DNA from: Escherichia coli O127:H6 str. E2348/69 | Lineage (GTDB): Bacteria > Pseudomonadota > Gammaproteobacteria > Enterobacterales > Enterobacteriaceae | Assembly: GCF_000026545.1 (NCBI RefSeq) | Contig: NC_011601.1 | Strand: one strand, 5' to 3' | Length of the DNA: 64,000 nt | Part shown: one piece after another, positions 6,001-9,000 of the stretch | Layout: the number at the start of each line of letters is the position of its first letter | How positions within the stretch are numbered: the first letter of the stretch is position 1 | Position numbers: made by a program

Positions 6001-9000
6001 ACAGGATTACTGGTCTAACGTTATCAGGGATGACAGGCAGTTTCTGGAGCGTTCAAGAAATCAGTTTAAAGAATATCGTATGGATTGTTTTGATTCGTTT
6101 GTTTTTGGTAAAGAGCAAATAGAATCAAGAAAAGGCCTGGTTATTCTAGACCTGACTAAATAAGACTTAGTTTAGCCCCTGCCATGCAGGGGCTTTTTTT
6201 GTGGTCTGTACAGGCGATCATGTATGGCTATAATAACAGTAAGTTACTACCGGAGACGCCATCATGCAGACCTTCAGTGAAACAGATCTTCGCGATGCGC
6301 AGGCACTGCTGCCCGATTCCGTGCAGCAACTGATTAGCGTGATTGGCTTCCCCGCCCTGACCCGGTTGATTCGTTCTTTTGGTGGCGTGACGTTAAGCGG
6401 TAAAACCGGCGTACACGCCGAACGCACCGGCGGTGTCCATGCCCTGTTACATGACGTGCTCACCGAAGACGAAATCAACAAACTGATCCGCTTTCTTGGC
6501 GGTGCTCCGTTTTACATTCCCCGTTGCGATCATGCGTTACGTGCCCTGCGTAACACCCGTTTTATGGCTGATTTACAGCAGCATGTAAAAGACGGATGCT
6601 CACACCGGCAGGCGCTGGCACTGCTCTGTCCCCGTTACGGCATTTCAGACCGGTACGCATGGCAGCTGATACACCGACGACAAAAACAGACTTCGCTGAA
6701 AAGCCCCACCCAGGTGGGGCTTTTTGATTAATGGGCCTCAGAAAAAAGGAGACACTTATGACCAACTATATGGCACTTGGCGAGTATACGGCCTACTCAG
6801 AGCAGGCCCGGGATGCTGCCGGACGTCGCTTTGCTTATATGAAAAATTTGGCCAGTCAGTTAAACCGAATGGCCGAACAACCGGATATGGTTGTTCAGGA
6901 AGAAGCGTTGCAGTGTGCCATTGCTGACATCATCGCCAGCGAAAACGAGATGCGCGCAGCGATGGAAAAGGCGAACGCCTCTGCTCCGCTTTGTAATAAA
7001 CCTCTTATTACGCCGGATTCTCTTTCCCGCTTCTGATTTATCACCCCGCCGCCGCGGGGTGCTGAACTCCCCCAGCAGTACCCACCACACCAGACCGTTT
7101 ACCCTGTCCACTCAGACCACAAGGCACCTTAAGGGATAGCGCCCTGCAAAAGGCTTTTGTGCCTTTGACAGGGTGTTATTTACGGGCCGTCAGTGGCTCA
7201 GATTTACAGGAGAAACTCATGTCTGAACCCTTATCAGGCGGCGGAGCTGTGGCAGTCACCATCGGTGGTGCCAGTGTGTTTGGCCTTCTCACCAATACCG
7301 ATTTCGGGGTCGTGGTGGGCGCGTTTGCCGGGGCGCTTTTTGTTGTCACTCAGCAGAAAGAAATCCCGGTATGGCGAATGGCTATTCACCTGCTCGTCGC
7401 GTTTGTGGTTGGCGTTCTGGGGGCTGGCGTGGCTGCGTCACTGATGCAGTGGCTGACCCACTACAACGACAAACCGCTTGATGCATTGTGTGCGGTCGGT
7501 GTCTCGGCGTTATCCATCAAGATACTGACCTTTCTTTATCAACAGGAAATTTCATCGCTGTTCGGCCTGTTTTCCAGACTGCGCGGCGGAGGGGGTGGAA
7601 ATGGAAAGTAGCCTTGCCGGTATCGTGAACGTCTGGCTGTGTCTCGCCATTGTGCTGGGGTTGTTTGTGTATCGCCGCCACGGTGCGGCGCATAAACCGA
7701 TGATTACCTGGCTGGCGTACTGGCTGATGCTCGGCTACATCATCATCCCGTTCCGCTGGCTGTCCGGTACATACACGCACTCCAGCTGGCTGGTTGTGGC
7801 GCTGAATCTGGTTTTCTGTGCGCTTATCGTGTGGGCGCACGGGAATTTGTCAAAAATCCTTTCGTTACTGAGGCATCCACATGAAATCAAAAGATGACAT
7901 TTTTGATGAAGTCCTGGGCAAAGAAGGCGGTTACGTCAATCACCCGGACGATAAGGGCGGTCCGACCAAATGGGGCATTACGGAAAAAGTCGCCCGCGCC
8001 CACGGATATCGTGGCGATATGCGCGATTTAACCCGCGAACAGGCGCTGGACATCCTTGAAGCCGATTACTGGTATGGCCCGCGATTTGACCAGATCGCCG
8101 CATTATCCCCTGATATTGCCGCAGAGCTGTGTGATACCGGTGTGAATATGGGGCCAACCGTGGCGTCCAGAATGCTTCAGCGCTGGCTGAATGTGTTCAA
8201 TCTGCGCGGCAGGCTGTACCCGGATATGGACGCAGACGGACGCATCGGGCCTCGTACCATCAGTGCATTGCGCGCCTTCCTGAATAATCGCGGTCAGGAC
8301 GGTGAACGGGTGATGCTGACGGCCCTGAACTGTACGCAGGGGGACCGCTATCTGGAACTGGCAGAGAAACGCGAGGCTAACGAATCGTTTGTTTATGGCT
8401 GGCTGAAGGAGCGCGTGGCGGTATGACGCGTCAGCACTGGACCCACAGAACGCCACGTAAAGCCGCGCGCTGTGTTCTGGCCCTGTTTCTGGTGATGTTG
8501 CTTCCGGTGGGATGCACAGACATTAACAGAGCGGGCCAGCTGTTTGACGCGGCGGCGCAGGTCTGCCGGATTATCGATGGTATCCGGCAGTGTTCACAGA
8601 ACTGATTTTTTGAAGGTCTGACACAGTGAGCATTATCAGATTTACAGAATACAGAGGTTCAGGAGGTGCTGGCGCTGTCATGGTGCTCGCTGAACGCATC
8701 ACCCATTTTTACCGTCAGTACGGTACACATGATGGCACGGTCATTGAACTGGATACCGGGAAAAACGTGTTTGTTCTTGAAAATCCCGACGAAGTTCAGC
8801 GCAGGATTGAACAGGCTCAGAAGGACACTTAATGGCGTGGTCACAGGATATCAGGGACAAAGTCCGTAACGGGTACATCTTTGACCAGCTTCCGCTGGAT
8901 ATCGTCGCCATGAAGTACGCCGTGCCGCACGATACCGCGCGGCGCTGGAAAACGCAGGCGATGAAGAACGGCGACGACTGGGACAAGCTGCGGGCCGCTC

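What the first reader, a model, noticed from the sequence alone, without database searches (positions are those of the whole stretch)
7219..8605. Lysis cassette with two membrane proteins, a GH108 endolysin and an unusually short lipoprotein
The GH108 endolysin with peptidoglycan-binding domain is clear. The two upstream membrane proteins (130 and 100 aa) and the downstream 60-aa putative lipoprotein do not obviously match a standard holin plus two-component spanin set. A separate inner-membrane spanin was not identified and the lipobox is non-canonical.
Basis: inference. Interest (0 to 1): 0.3.

Follow-up and report, generated by a model that had tools for sequence, protein, structure and literature searches.

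The report
Lone small lipoprotein replaces phage spanins
A Mu-like prophage of E. coli E2348/69 has an ordinary two-holin plus endolysin lysis cassette, but where phages normally encode the two-part "spanin" that breaks the outer membrane it has one conserved 60-residue lipoprotein with no partner, so this protein is a testable candidate for a different way of breaching the outer membrane.

Summary
The four genes exist as described. The window is the Mu-like prophage of EPEC E2348/69.

- **Holins and endolysin:** The two "membrane proteins" are ordinary holin-family proteins (Pfam Phage_holin_8 and Phage_holin_3_7). The endolysin is a soluble GH108/PG_binding_3 enzyme.
- **The 60-aa ORF:** It belongs to a small family, phrog_7528, function unknown. 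The family is under purifying selection (dN/dS about 0.25 overall, 0.08-0.19 in the mature part). It has 21 clusters among 1.8 billion representative proteins and occurs in about 7% of complete E. coli genomes.
- **Lipobox:** This copy has an odd lipobox (LLPVGC, Pro at -3). Relatives have canonical L[VAS]GC.
- **Position:** In more than 130 loci the gene sits downstream of the endolysin. This holds with two holin types and two endolysin types, and no inner-membrane spanin partner is present.
- **Slot equivalence:** Sister phages with the same backbone or the same holins carry a canonical i-spanin/o-spanin pair in exactly that slot.
- **Ancestry:** The signal-peptide region is homologous to LysC/SfV-Rz1-type o-spanins. 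The 30-aa, two-cysteine mature part matches nothing known.
- **Prior record:** A 2018 spanin census listed the phiP27 homologue as an o-spanin. The i-spanin paired with it there appears to be an antisense artefact.

Best reading: a spanin-substituting outer-membrane lysis lipoprotein whose mechanism is untested. This is moderately interesting.

The parts
7219..7611 (+). Holin-family protein 1, 130 aa, with 3-4 hydrophobic segments and a C-terminal SRLRGGGGGNGK tail.
   Evidence: Pfam PF16931 Phage_holin_8 at E = 3e-25, covering the full profile. phrog_198 'holin' at E = 9e-42. Hydropathy segments at residues 8-26, 26-46, 48-79 and 86-107. RefSeq annotates it as 'phage holin family protein'. 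Which of the two proteins is the holin and which the antiholin or co-holin was not tested.
7601..7897 (+). Holin-family protein 2, 98 aa from ATG 7601, with 3 transmembrane segments.
   Evidence: Pfam PF05449 Phage_holin_3_7 at E = 7e-17. phrog_217 'holin' at E = 2e-31. Three hydrophobic segments. Its start overlaps the end of holin 1.
7881..8426 (+). Soluble endolysin, 181 aa: a GH108 N-acetylmuramidase domain followed by a PG_binding_3 domain.
   Evidence: PF05838 at E = 2e-27 (residues 8-91) and PF09374 at E = 1e-26 (residues 95-179). phrog_315 endolysin. No hydrophobic segment, so no signal or SAR sequence, and export must depend on a holin. The EGGY motif is visible in the sequence.
8405..8411 (+). 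Shine-Dalgarno-like GAAGGAG, 11 nt upstream of the ATG of the 60-aa ORF and inside the end of the endolysin gene.
   Evidence: Read directly from the sequence. The ATGA start/stop overlap at 8423-8426 implies translational coupling. No sigma-70-like promoter or terminator lies between the genes.
8423..8605 (+). 60-aa small lipoprotein precursor of family phrog_7528, sitting in the spanin slot of the cassette.
   Evidence: phrog_7528 at E = 2e-43. The family is under purifying selection. It is found downstream of the endolysin in more than 130 loci.
8423..8512 (+). Signal peptide, residues 1-30: a long basic n-region (MTRQHWTHRTPRKAAR), a hydrophobic core (CVLALFLVMLL) and the lipobox L-P-V-G before Cys31.
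   Evidence: Hydropathy peak at residues 11-35. Homologous to the signal/lipobox region of LysC/SfV-Rz1-type o-spanins: BLASTP 15/36 identities at E = 5e-8, SfV Rz1 matches phrog_7528 at E = 4e-5, and hhalign gives probability 94% at E = 1e-7. Pro at -3 fails the PROSITE-type rule, which 60 of 76 family variants pass.
8513..8602 (+). Predicted mature peptide, 30 aa: CTDINRAGQLFDAAAQVCRIIDGIRQCSQN. Cys31 would be lipidated, residue +2 is Thr, and two further invariant cysteines lie at positions 48 and 57.
   Evidence: C31, C48 and C57 are invariant in the family alignment and are kept in distant members. dN/dS is 0.08-0.19. Residue +2 is never Asp in the family. Net charge is 0, and the amphipathic moment is not above shuffled controls. 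No similarity to Rz or to o-spanin mature domains, nor to Pfam, PDB, NCBIfam or PADLOC entries.

Best explanation
**Proposal.** The 60-aa ORF encodes a small outer-membrane lipoprotein that is the third, outer-membrane-breaching component of this lysis cassette. It takes the place of a two-component spanin.

**Sequence of events**
1. The gene is transcribed with the holins and the endolysin and is translationally coupled to the endolysin.
2. The protein is exported by Sec, lipidated at Cys31 and sent to the outer membrane by Lol, because residue +2 is Thr and not Asp.
3. It accumulates on the periplasmic face of the outer membrane.
4. The holin(s) release the soluble GH108 endolysin, and the murein is degraded.
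5. The 30-residue helical, two-cysteine peptide then destabilises the outer membrane.

**Why not membrane fusion.** The peptide is too short to reach the inner membrane and has no conserved phage-encoded inner-membrane partner. It therefore most likely acts locally on the outer membrane, as disulfide-linked oligomers or through a host factor, rather than by inner-outer membrane fusion.

**Origin.** It descends from a LysC/SfV-Rz1-type o-spanin gene in its signal-peptide region. Its mature domain is new.

**Shown here:** gene reality, family conservation, position, absence of a partner, slot equivalence with spanins, and signal-region homology.

**Inferred:** lipidation, outer-membrane location, any lytic activity, and the mode of action.
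For: **1. Constant position at the end of lysis cassettes**
- Among 68 IMG/VR loci seeded on the holin rather than on the lipoprotein, 61 carry it downstream of the endolysin.
- The endolysin is either GH108 or an M15 peptidase.
- Distant family members follow the endolysin directly in cassettes with a different, lambda-S-like holin (PF05106). All four holin x endolysin combinations occur.
- The right-hand neighbour varies: DUF1804, HNH/terminase, ParB, a hydrolase or YfbU.

**2. Slot equivalence with canonical spanins**
- Sister Mu-like phages (DUF1804 76-79% identical) have holin, endolysin, i-spanin and a LysC-like o-spanin between Mor and DUF1804, where this prophage has the lipoprotein cassette.
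- Yersinia phage vB_YpM_41, Klebsiella phage ST16-OXA48phi5.3 and Escherichia phage SaltyDalty have the same holin_8/holin_3_7/endolysin trio followed by an overlapped i/o-spanin pair.

**3. No canonical spanin where the lipoprotein is intact**
- Neither reference tblastn nor a generic scan for a TMD ORF paired with a lipobox ORF finds a credible spanin pair in 60 of the 61 holin-seeded loci that carry the lipoprotein. The one generic-scan hit (L156) proved an artefact. The exception, L142, is described under point 4.
- None is found in the prophage in the window.

**4. Decay where canonical Rz/Rz1 is present**
- The gene is a pseudogene with several in-frame stop codons (3-4 in the translated stretches) in the Stx2 phages GER2 and O104:H4.
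- It is N-terminally truncated in L142.

**5. Purifying selection.** Selection is strongest on the mature peptide.

**6. Late co-expression.** There is an ATGA overlap with the endolysin, a Shine-Dalgarno sequence inside the endolysin gene and no promoter-like site.

**7. Ancestry.** The signal region is homologous to known o-spanins.

**8. Lipoprotein features in the family.** 60 of 76 variants pass the lipobox rule, and residue +2 is never Asp.

**9. Prior annotation.** Kongari et al. 2018 (PMC6139136) independently annotated the phiP27 homologue as an o-spanin.
Against: - No experiment exists for any family member.
- The mature peptide is neutral and not significantly amphipathic, so it does not look like a membrane-active peptide.
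- The AlphaFold model has low confidence, with pLDDT 63.
- This copy's lipobox has Pro at -3. I found no precedent for that in the held text of the Kongari supplement, so processing is uncertain for the Mu-like clade.
- In some lambdoid loci the gene lies 0.5-2 kb from the endolysin, with unrelated genes between them. That also fits a moron.
- The evidence that the gene decays when Rz/Rz1 is present rests on only two or three lineages.
- Spanin-less lysis is possible under laboratory conditions, so a phage need not encode any outer-membrane factor.
Confidence: 0.5

Rival explanations
1. It is the o-spanin of a genuine two-component spanin whose inner-membrane partner has not been recognised. 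The partner could be a tiny or atypical phage protein, one of the two 'holin-family' proteins, or a host inner-membrane or periplasmic protein. In that case it works by the usual envelope-spanning fusion mechanism.
For: - Kongari 2018 lists phiP27 as a 'separated' two-component spanin, with a 64-aa i-spanin and this lipoprotein family as the o-spanin.
- The signal region is homologous to LysC-type o-spanins.
- Conserved periplasmic cysteines are typical of spanin subunits.
- Many lambdoid loci have a tiny TMD ORF (phrog_4493) ending right at the lipoprotein start.
Against: - The phiP27 'i-spanin' is a TTG-started ORF antisense to a conserved gene (phrog_36812). It has no PHROG match, gives no tblastn hit in any other locus, and is reduced to 36 aa in L044, L045 and L047.
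- No + strand ORF with a single N-terminal TMD exists in the window's prophage, apart from a variable 158-aa secreted protein found in only 7 IMG/VR loci.
- Holin types differ between family contexts, so no phage membrane protein is constant.
- The phrog_4493 ORF is absent from the window and from most loci, and its TMD is C-terminal.
- Thirty residues plus a short partner cannot easily span the periplasm.
Confidence: 0.15
2. It is a moron-type accessory lipoprotein, for example for superinfection exclusion or receptor blocking like Cor or T5 Llp, or for host fitness like Bor. It merely resides at the lysis/packaging junction. These phages would then be truly spanin-less, or would rely on shear.
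For: - The lysis-packaging junction is a known insertion hot spot. In related loci toxin genes (LT-II, pertussis-like), a KilA-N gene and other cargo sit there.
- In phiP27-type phages the gene is separated from the endolysin by unrelated genes.
- A relic of it lies after Rz/Rz1 and a bor-position gene in Stx2a phages, so there it is not in the Rz slot itself.
- Small disulfide-containing outer-membrane lipoproteins are typical exclusion factors. This point rests on my background knowledge and was not tested here.
Against: - In the window and in many loci the gene overlaps or abuts the endolysin, leaving no room for its own promoter, and no promoter-like site is found.
- Its left neighbour is always the lysis cassette, while the right neighbour varies.
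- In the loci sampled here, canonical spanins are absent wherever the gene is intact, and the gene is degenerate or truncated in the few loci where Rz/Rz1 is present.
- There is no hit to PADLOC defence models.
- Lambdoid copies carry a terminator-like hairpin inside the ORF. That would block expression from non-antiterminated transcripts.
Confidence: 0.2
3. In this Mu-like clade the protein is not lipidated, because Pro at -3 spoils the lipobox. It would then stay in the inner membrane as a type II bitopic protein with a 30-aa periplasmic tail. It would act at the holin level, as an antiholin, a timing factor or a release factor, in the manner of small accessory lysis proteins such as Mu gp25 or LambdaSo Lcc6.
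For: - All 14 Mu-clade variants have PVGC or PLGC and fail the PROSITE-type rule.
- No Pro(-3) lipobox was found in the held o-spanin tables.
- Small single-TMD accessory lysis proteins are documented (abstracts of PMC9239132 and bioRxiv 10.1101/2024.01.23.576932).
Against: - The Gly-Cys of the lipobox and Cys31 are invariant in the Mu clade and across the family.
- The rest of the family has textbook lipoboxes, and the mature part is the most constrained region.
- Unusual lipoboxes such as AWAC have been shown to work.
Confidence: 0.1
4. It is a non-functional remnant of an o-spanin gene left behind after deletion of Rz/Rz1.
For: - The signal region is homologous to LysC/SfV-Rz1 o-spanins.
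- The frame overlapping the 5' end still resembles the Rz frame over about 30 nt.
- Clear pseudogene copies exist.
Against: - dN/dS is 0.24-0.29, and 0.08-0.19 in the mature part, across two clades that are saturated at synonymous sites.
- The reading frame is intact in all but about 5 of the ~150 copies examined.
- The gene is conserved in distant relatives with different cassettes.
Confidence: 0.05

Closest known systems
o-spanin subunit of two-component spanins, specifically the P2 LysC / SfV Rz1 type (PHROG 456, Pfam PF23793)
   Same: - Small outer-membrane lipoprotein precursor encoded as the last gene of a lysis cassette.
- The signal-peptide and lipobox region is homologous (hhalign probability 94%; BLASTP E = 5e-8).
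- Conserved periplasmic cysteines.
- The phiP27 homologue is already listed as an o-spanin in Kongari 2018.
   Different: - No i-spanin partner gene is found.
- The mature part is 30 aa rather than about 60-90 aa. It is predicted to be helical and is not proline-rich.
- The mature part shows no similarity to LysC-type mature domains.
Unimolecular spanin (T1 gp11 type)
   Same: A single gene in the spanin slot, with an N-terminal lipoprotein signal.
   Different: It lacks the defining C-terminal transmembrane anchor and the long periplasmic beta-rich domain, so it cannot bridge the two membranes.
Disruptin (phiKT gp28)
   Same: A single small peptide of about 56-60 aa proposed to breach the outer membrane without spanning the periplasm, in a phage that lacks spanins.
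   Different: gp28 is a cationic amphipathic peptide with no signal sequence. This protein has a Sec/lipoprotein signal, a net charge of 0 to -1, three cysteines and no significant amphipathic moment.
Colicin lysis proteins (bacteriocin release proteins) and entericidin B
   Same: Very small lipoproteins, with mature parts of about 27-35 aa, that permeabilise or lyse the E. coli envelope from within. Some colicin lysis proteins have LLVGC-type lipoboxes. This comparison rests on my background knowledge.
   Different: - No sequence similarity, and no Pfam match at E <= 5.
- Those proteins are encoded in colicin or chromosomal operons, not in phage lysis cassettes.
- They lack the two-cysteine motif.
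- Dependence on OmpLA was not tested here.
phiP27-type lysis cassette (holin_8 + holin_3_7 + endolysin)
   Same: The same two holin families in the same order, followed by the same lipoprotein family, at 49-62% holin identity and 57% lipoprotein identity.
   Different: phiP27 uses an M15 L-alanyl-D-glutamate peptidase instead of GH108. It has about 480 bp with an antisense gene between the endolysin and the lipoprotein, and its lipobox is canonical (FLVGC).

Membership tests
Holin (Pfam Phage_holin_8, PF16931) | Sequence match above Pfam's gathering score over the full profile. | tested here: met
   89.1 bits against a cut-off of 26.4, covering profile positions 1-121 of 121. phrog_198 'holin' at E = 9e-42.
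Holin (Pfam Phage_holin_3_7, PF05449) | Sequence match above the gathering score, with three transmembrane segments. | tested here: met
   61.7 bits against a cut-off of 25.4. Three hydrophobic segments. phrog_217 'holin'.
Holin (either protein) | Forms lethal holes in the inner membrane that release the endolysin. | not testable with these tools
   This needs expression and lysis assays. Indirect support: the endolysin has no signal or SAR sequence, so it needs a holin.
GH108 endolysin | GH108 catalytic domain plus a peptidoglycan-binding domain. | tested here: met
   PF05838 at E = 2e-27 and PF09374 at E = 1e-26. The EGGY motif is present.
Bacterial lipoprotein (SPase II substrate) | Basic n-region, hydrophobic core, and lipobox [LVI][ASTVI][GAS]C with the Cys at position 15-35. 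| tested here: inconclusive
   The n-region, core, Gly(-1) and Cys31 are present, but position -3 is Pro, so this copy fails the PROSITE-type rule. 60 of 76 family variants pass it. LipoP, SignalP and biochemical tests were not available.
Outer-membrane sorting (Lol) | No Asp at position +2. | tested here: met
   Residue +2 is Thr here and V, T, A, S or G in the family, never Asp.
o-spanin of a two-component spanin | Cognate i-spanin gene (N-terminal TMD plus a periplasmic coiled coil) embedded in, overlapping or adjacent to it. | tested here: not met
   None is found in the cassette, the prophage or the related loci sampled. The phiP27 candidate is not conserved.
o-spanin of a two-component spanin | Location in the lysis cassette, downstream of the endolysin. 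| tested here: met
   ATGA overlap with the endolysin. The position is constant across cassette types.
o-spanin of a two-component spanin | Sequence homology to a known o-spanin family. | tested here: inconclusive
   The signal/lipobox region is homologous to the LysC/SfV-Rz1 type. The mature domain shows no similarity, and there is no hit to PF23793 or the Rz-like PHROGs.
o-spanin of a two-component spanin | Periplasmic domains of both subunits together long enough to span the periplasm. | tested here: not met
   The mature part is 30 aa and there is no partner. Kongari 2018 already flags phiP27 as the shortest, at 62 aa in total.
Unimolecular spanin | N-terminal lipoprotein signal plus a C-terminal transmembrane domain. 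| tested here: not met
   There is a single hydrophobic segment, at residues 11-35. The C-terminus is polar.
Disruptin (phiKT gp28-like) | Cationic amphipathic helical peptide without a signal sequence. | tested here: not met
   Net charge is 0 (or -1 in phiP27). The hydrophobic moment is reached by 12% of shuffles. A lipoprotein signal is present.
Colicin lysis protein (Pfam Lysis_col) | Sequence membership of the family. | tested here: not met
   No Pfam family matched at E <= 1 or 5.

The most novel reading that the evidence does not exclude
phrog_7528 lipoproteins are a third class of phage outer-membrane disruptor, after spanins and the phiKT disruptin. The protein would be a partner-less, lipid-anchored 30-residue peptide, derived from an o-spanin gene, that breaches the outer membrane from its inner leaflet once the murein is gone. 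It might act by disulfide-linked oligomerisation or by activating a host factor such as the outer-membrane phospholipase. It would be in use in Stx2e and Stx2k phages and in Mu-like prophages carried by roughly 7% of sequenced E. coli.
Probability: 0.35. Interest if true: 0.75.

Novelty: new variant of a known kind. Interest (0 to 1): 0.5.

Why it matters
About 13-15% of phages of Gram-negative hosts have no recognisable spanin (91 of 677 in Kongari 2018), and only one alternative has been described, the phiKT disruptin.

This family offers a second candidate, and it sits in the most tractable system available: E. coli, with lambda Rz/Rz1 complementation assays. It is common in prophages of medical interest:

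- Stx2e phage phiP27
- an Stx2k phage
- prophages that carry pertussis-like toxin genes
- the EPEC E2348/69 Mu-like prophage

If the lipoprotein breaches the outer membrane alone, it would show that a 30-residue lipid-anchored peptide suffices for the last step of lysis. That is relevant to how toxins and virions are released and to engineered lysis systems.

The work also corrects a database entry. The phiP27 "two-component spanin" very probably has no i-spanin.

Tried and rejected
1. **Chimera idea.** I proposed that the mature peptide derives from the C-terminus of lambda/933W-type Rz, because ..TASQVCEIVDGVRQCLQN resembles ..ITAQVNYLQEYIRMQCLD by eye. hhalign of the family against an Rz alignment found only a TMD-to-TMD match at probability 4.8%. 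Rejected.

2. **Internal-deletion idea.** I proposed that the lipobox Cys was fused to the conserved C-terminal 'NCDKALIRQIE' motif of LysC-type o-spanins. hhalign with the mature part alone found nothing. Rejected. Only the signal region is homologous.

3. **The phiP27 'i-spanin' of Kongari 2018 as a conserved partner.** It gives no tblastn hit outside phiP27 and has no PHROG match. It is the antisense shadow of a conserved gene, and is only 36 aa in relatives. Rejected.

4. **ORF 5687-6163 (158 aa) as a distant i-spanin.** It has an N-terminal hydrophobic segment, a helical charged domain and two cysteines. However, it is found in only 7 IMG/VR loci, is absent from most Mu-like loci that carry the lipoprotein, and its h-region with VLA|Q looks like a cleavable signal peptide. 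Rejected as an obligate partner.

5. **Relic Rz frame.** BLASTP of phiP27 L32 against SfV Rz gave no alignment. Only about 30 nt of DNA similarity is visible.

6. **AlphaFold2 on the family alignment.** pLDDT was 63 and the model is a single long helix. Uninformative, so no fold search was run.

7. **Database searches for the 60-aa protein.** Pfam, NCBIfam, PADLOC and PDB sequence searches returned nothing meaningful.

8. **tblastn of holin_8 against the phage collection.** It returned nothing, probably because of low-complexity masking. I used holin_3_7 instead.

9. **Literature searches.** I searched for an orphan o-spanin, lipoprotein disruptors, the two Pfam holin families, and the E2348/69 Mu-like prophage. 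Nothing specific turned up.

10. **A 'spanin pair' flagged in L156 by my generic scan.** It proved to be an artefact of internal start codons.
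Full report
**Where the window comes from.** Bases 7100-8900 are 100% identical to the chromosome of enteropathogenic E. coli O127:H6 E2348/69. The annotated neighbourhood identifies a Mu-like prophage: Mu transposase, Mor activator, DUF1804, TerL, DUF935 portal, Mu-type head and contractile-tail genes. The prophage is inserted in eutC. The finding lies between the Mor-family gene (6264-6731) and the DUF1804 gene (8832-9332). That is where Mu-like phages keep their lysis genes.

**The observation.** Four tightly packed + strand ORFs are present exactly as described.
- The 130-aa protein is a full-length Phage_holin_8 (PF16931, 89 bits; phrog_198 "holin").
- The 98-aa protein is a Phage_holin_3_7 (PF05449, 62 bits; phrog_217 "holin").
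- The 181-aa protein carries Glyco_hydro_108 plus PG_binding_3.
- The endolysin has no hydrophobic segment, so it needs a holin for export. The two holin-family proteins have 3-4 and 3 hydrophobic segments respectively.
- The 60-aa ORF has no Pfam, NCBIfam, PADLOC or PDB match. It matches phrog_7528 ("unknown function") end to end at E = 2e-43.

The remarks about the last ORF are correct.

**Is the 60-aa ORF a gene and a lipoprotein?** Its start overlaps the endolysin stop (ATGA), and a GAAGGAG lies 11 nt upstream. No promoter- or terminator-like site separates the cassette genes.
- I collected about 150 copies from IMG/VR and phage records, which gave 70 distinct proteins and 77 distinct full-length DNAs.
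- The copies form two clades: a Mu-like clade and a lambdoid clade about 57% identical to it.
- dN/dS is 0.24-0.29 overall, 0.08-0.19 for residues 31-60, and 0.3-0.6 for the signal region.
- M1, R3, H8, R9, P11, G30, C31, C48 and C57 are invariant.
- An exhaustive profile search of 1.84 billion representative proteins found only 21 clusters. The distant ones (P0015, P0021, P0024, P0030, P0032 and others) keep a basic n-region, a canonical lipobox (LVGC, LAGC, FAGC or LMGC), the Cys, and two further cysteines about 17 and 26 residues later.
- A PROSITE-type lipobox rule is passed by 60 of 76 distinct variants. The 14 Mu-clade variants, including this one (LLPVGC or LLPLGC), fail only because of Pro at -3. 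Residue +2 is never Asp.
- I found no Pro(-3) lipobox in the held text of the Kongari o-spanin tables.

The lipoprotein status of the family is therefore well supported by sequence. Processing of this particular copy is plausible but unproven.

**No partner.**
- Across the prophage, the only + strand ORFs with a lipobox-like signal are this one and a 158-aa ORF at 5687-6163. The same two are the only + strand ORFs with a single N-terminal hydrophobic segment.
- The 158-aa ORF occurs in just 7 IMG/VR loci, so it is a variable accessory gene and not a constant partner.
- Kongari et al. 2018 list phiP27 as a "separated" two-component spanin. They give an i-spanin at 20348-20542 (64 aa) and an o-spanin at 20706-20861, with a combined periplasmic length of 62 residues, the shortest in their set.
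- That o-spanin is the phiP27 homologue of this ORF (57% identity).
- That i-spanin is a TTG-started ORF lying antisense to a 90-aa gene. The 90-aa gene is itself conserved at 44-46% identity in other loci and belongs to phrog_36812. The i-spanin ORF has no PHROG match and gives no tblastn hit elsewhere, and it shrinks to 36 aa in those loci.
- I conclude that the phiP27 i-spanin call is an artefact and that the family has no recognisable i-spanin.

**Genomic association.**
- In 80 loci seeded on the lipoprotein, it always follows holin_8, holin_3_7 and an endolysin. The endolysin is either GH108 or an M15 peptidase, and the phage background is either Mu-like or lambdoid.
- In 68 loci seeded on holin_8 with enough downstream sequence, 61 have the lipoprotein. 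Of those, 60 have no credible spanin pair by reference tblastn or by a generic scan for a TMD ORF paired with a lipobox ORF; the one generic-scan hit (L156) proved an artefact.
- Distant family members sit 1-10 nt after the endolysin in cassettes that use a lambda-S-like holin (PF05106) with either M15_4 or GH108. Again no N-terminal-TMD ORF lies nearby.
- The left neighbour is always the lysis cassette. The right neighbour varies.

**Slot equivalence.**
- Sister Mu-like phages with 76-79% identical DUF1804 carry holin, endolysin, an i-spanin (131-132 aa) and an overlapped LysC-like o-spanin in the same interval. More distant ones carry the Mu-type arrangement with an embedded o-spanin.
- Phages with the same holin_8/holin_3_7/endolysin trio carry an overlapped i/o-spanin pair directly after the endolysin. 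Examples are Yersinia vB_YpM_41, Klebsiella ST16-OXA48phi5.3 and Escherichia SaltyDalty.
- Where lambda-type Rz/Rz1 is present, the lipoprotein gene is degenerate. In the Stx2 phages GER2 and O104:H4 it is interrupted by several in-frame stop codons (3-4 in the translated stretches). In L142 the N-terminus is truncated.

**Ancestry.**
- Residues 2-31 align with the signal region of SfV Rz1 (15/36 identities, E = 5e-8 pairwise).
- SfV Rz1 hits phrog_7528 at E = 4e-5.
- hhalign of the family against a LysC/SfV-Rz1 alignment gives probability 94% at E = 1e-7, for the signal/lipobox region only.
- The mature part shows no similarity to LysC-type o-spanins or to Rz.
- The gene looks like an o-spanin descendant that has acquired a new, very short mature domain.

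**Mechanism.**
- The peptide is neutral (net charge 0 or -1) and not significantly amphipathic, so it is not a gp28-like cationic disruptin.
- It has no C-terminal TMD, so it is not a u-spanin.
- AlphaFold2 gives only a low-confidence helix.
- The best-supported reading is a late-expressed outer-membrane lipoprotein that substitutes for a spanin and acts locally on the outer membrane after murein degradation.
- How it acts is inference: oligomerisation through its two conserved cysteines, or recruitment of a host factor in the manner of colicin lysis lipoproteins.
- I give this reading 0.5. The alternatives are an unrecognised partner (0.15), a moron or exclusion lipoprotein (0.2), an unprocessed inner-membrane regulator in the Pro(-3) clade (0.1) and a dead remnant (0.05).

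**Prevalence and novelty.**
- Lambdoid-clade copies occur in 362 of 5426 complete E. coli genomes, with up to 8 places per genome. Mu-clade copies occur in about 54 genomes.
- Where a gene is called there, it is annotated "hypothetical protein"; several copies in the sampled rows carry no annotation.
- The family is not unknown, since one member is in a spanin census. Its partner-less, conserved, spanin-replacing character has not been described in the literature I could search.
- I rate it a new variant of a known kind, with interest 0.5.

Noticed in passing
L003:3550-3575 (phiP27); also L008:2550-2575, L169 and L170; not present in the window copy at 8468-8507: Lambdoid-clade copies of the lipoprotein gene contain an 11-bp hairpin followed by a T5-6 run inside the signal-peptide codons. 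It looks like an intrinsic terminator, at about -16 kcal/mol. All 62 distinct sequences keep the pairing, and two distant members also have it. The Mu-like clade has no such structure (-2.8 kcal/mol). Synonymous divergence in the signal region is about half that of the mature region.
   Followed up: partly
window 5687-6163 (+): A 158-aa ORF lies between a gp16-family gene and Mor. It has an N-terminal signal peptide (possible lipobox VIFSC, or an SPase I site VLA|Q), a charged helical domain and two cysteines. It has no Pfam, PHROG, NCBIfam or PADLOC match and is present in only 7 IMG/VR loci. It is probably an accessory secreted protein of this Mu-like prophage.
   Followed up: partly
L003:3170-3364 (phiP27 20348-20542): The phiP27 i-spanin listed in Kongari et al. 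2018 is a TTG-started ORF antisense to a conserved 90-aa gene (phrog_36812). It is not conserved in related phages, so it is likely a mis-annotation in the spanin census.
   Followed up: yes
L006:2326-2499, L007:1130-1282, L188:1669-1782: A tiny ORF family (phrog_4493/1115, 37-57 aa, with a C-terminal hydrophobic segment ending ..RWW) lies immediately upstream of the lipoprotein in many lambdoid loci. It also lies immediately upstream of Rz in the Stx2a phages GER2 and O104:H4. Its function is unknown, and it is absent from the window.
   Followed up: partly
L007:2501-2668 and L188:3001-3171: Stx2 phages with the canonical S-R-Rz/Rz1 cassette carry an unannotated, stop-riddled relic of the lipoprotein gene. 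It lies between a reverse-strand 'heptose(II)-phosphate phosphatase' gene and the terminase genes.
   Followed up: yes
window 8626-8832 (+): An ORF of family phrog_7691 lies between the lipoprotein gene and DUF1804. RefSeq starts it at 8680 (50 aa). Homologues in sister Mu-like phages are 67-70 aa (L212, L213), which suggests the GTG at 8626 is the real start. It has no TMD and only a weak FlbD-like Pfam hit below threshold. It is conserved whatever the lysis cassette type, so it belongs to the packaging-side module.
   Followed up: partly
window about 31460-32134 and 34775-36148: The right end of the prophage abuts a truncated eutC, so the Mu-like element has inserted into the ethanolamine operon. 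Separately, an IS4-family ISEc13 splits eutA.
   Followed up: no
window about 29940-31433: Tail-fibre assembly and gp53-like genes face each other on opposite strands at the prophage end. This is reminiscent of Mu's invertible G segment. No invertase gene is annotated in the stretch examined.
   Followed up: no
L128, L167, L168, L185, L224 (related lambdoid prophages): Heat-labile enterotoxin LT-II genes lie immediately downstream of the same holin_8/holin_3_7/GH108 cassette. Pertussis-like toxin genes lie immediately upstream of it. The LT-II loci show neither the lipoprotein nor spanins within the sequence held.
   Followed up: no
window 9379-10119 (+): A DNA methyltransferase gene is inserted between DUF1804 and the large terminase gene of the Mu-like prophage.
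   Followed up: no
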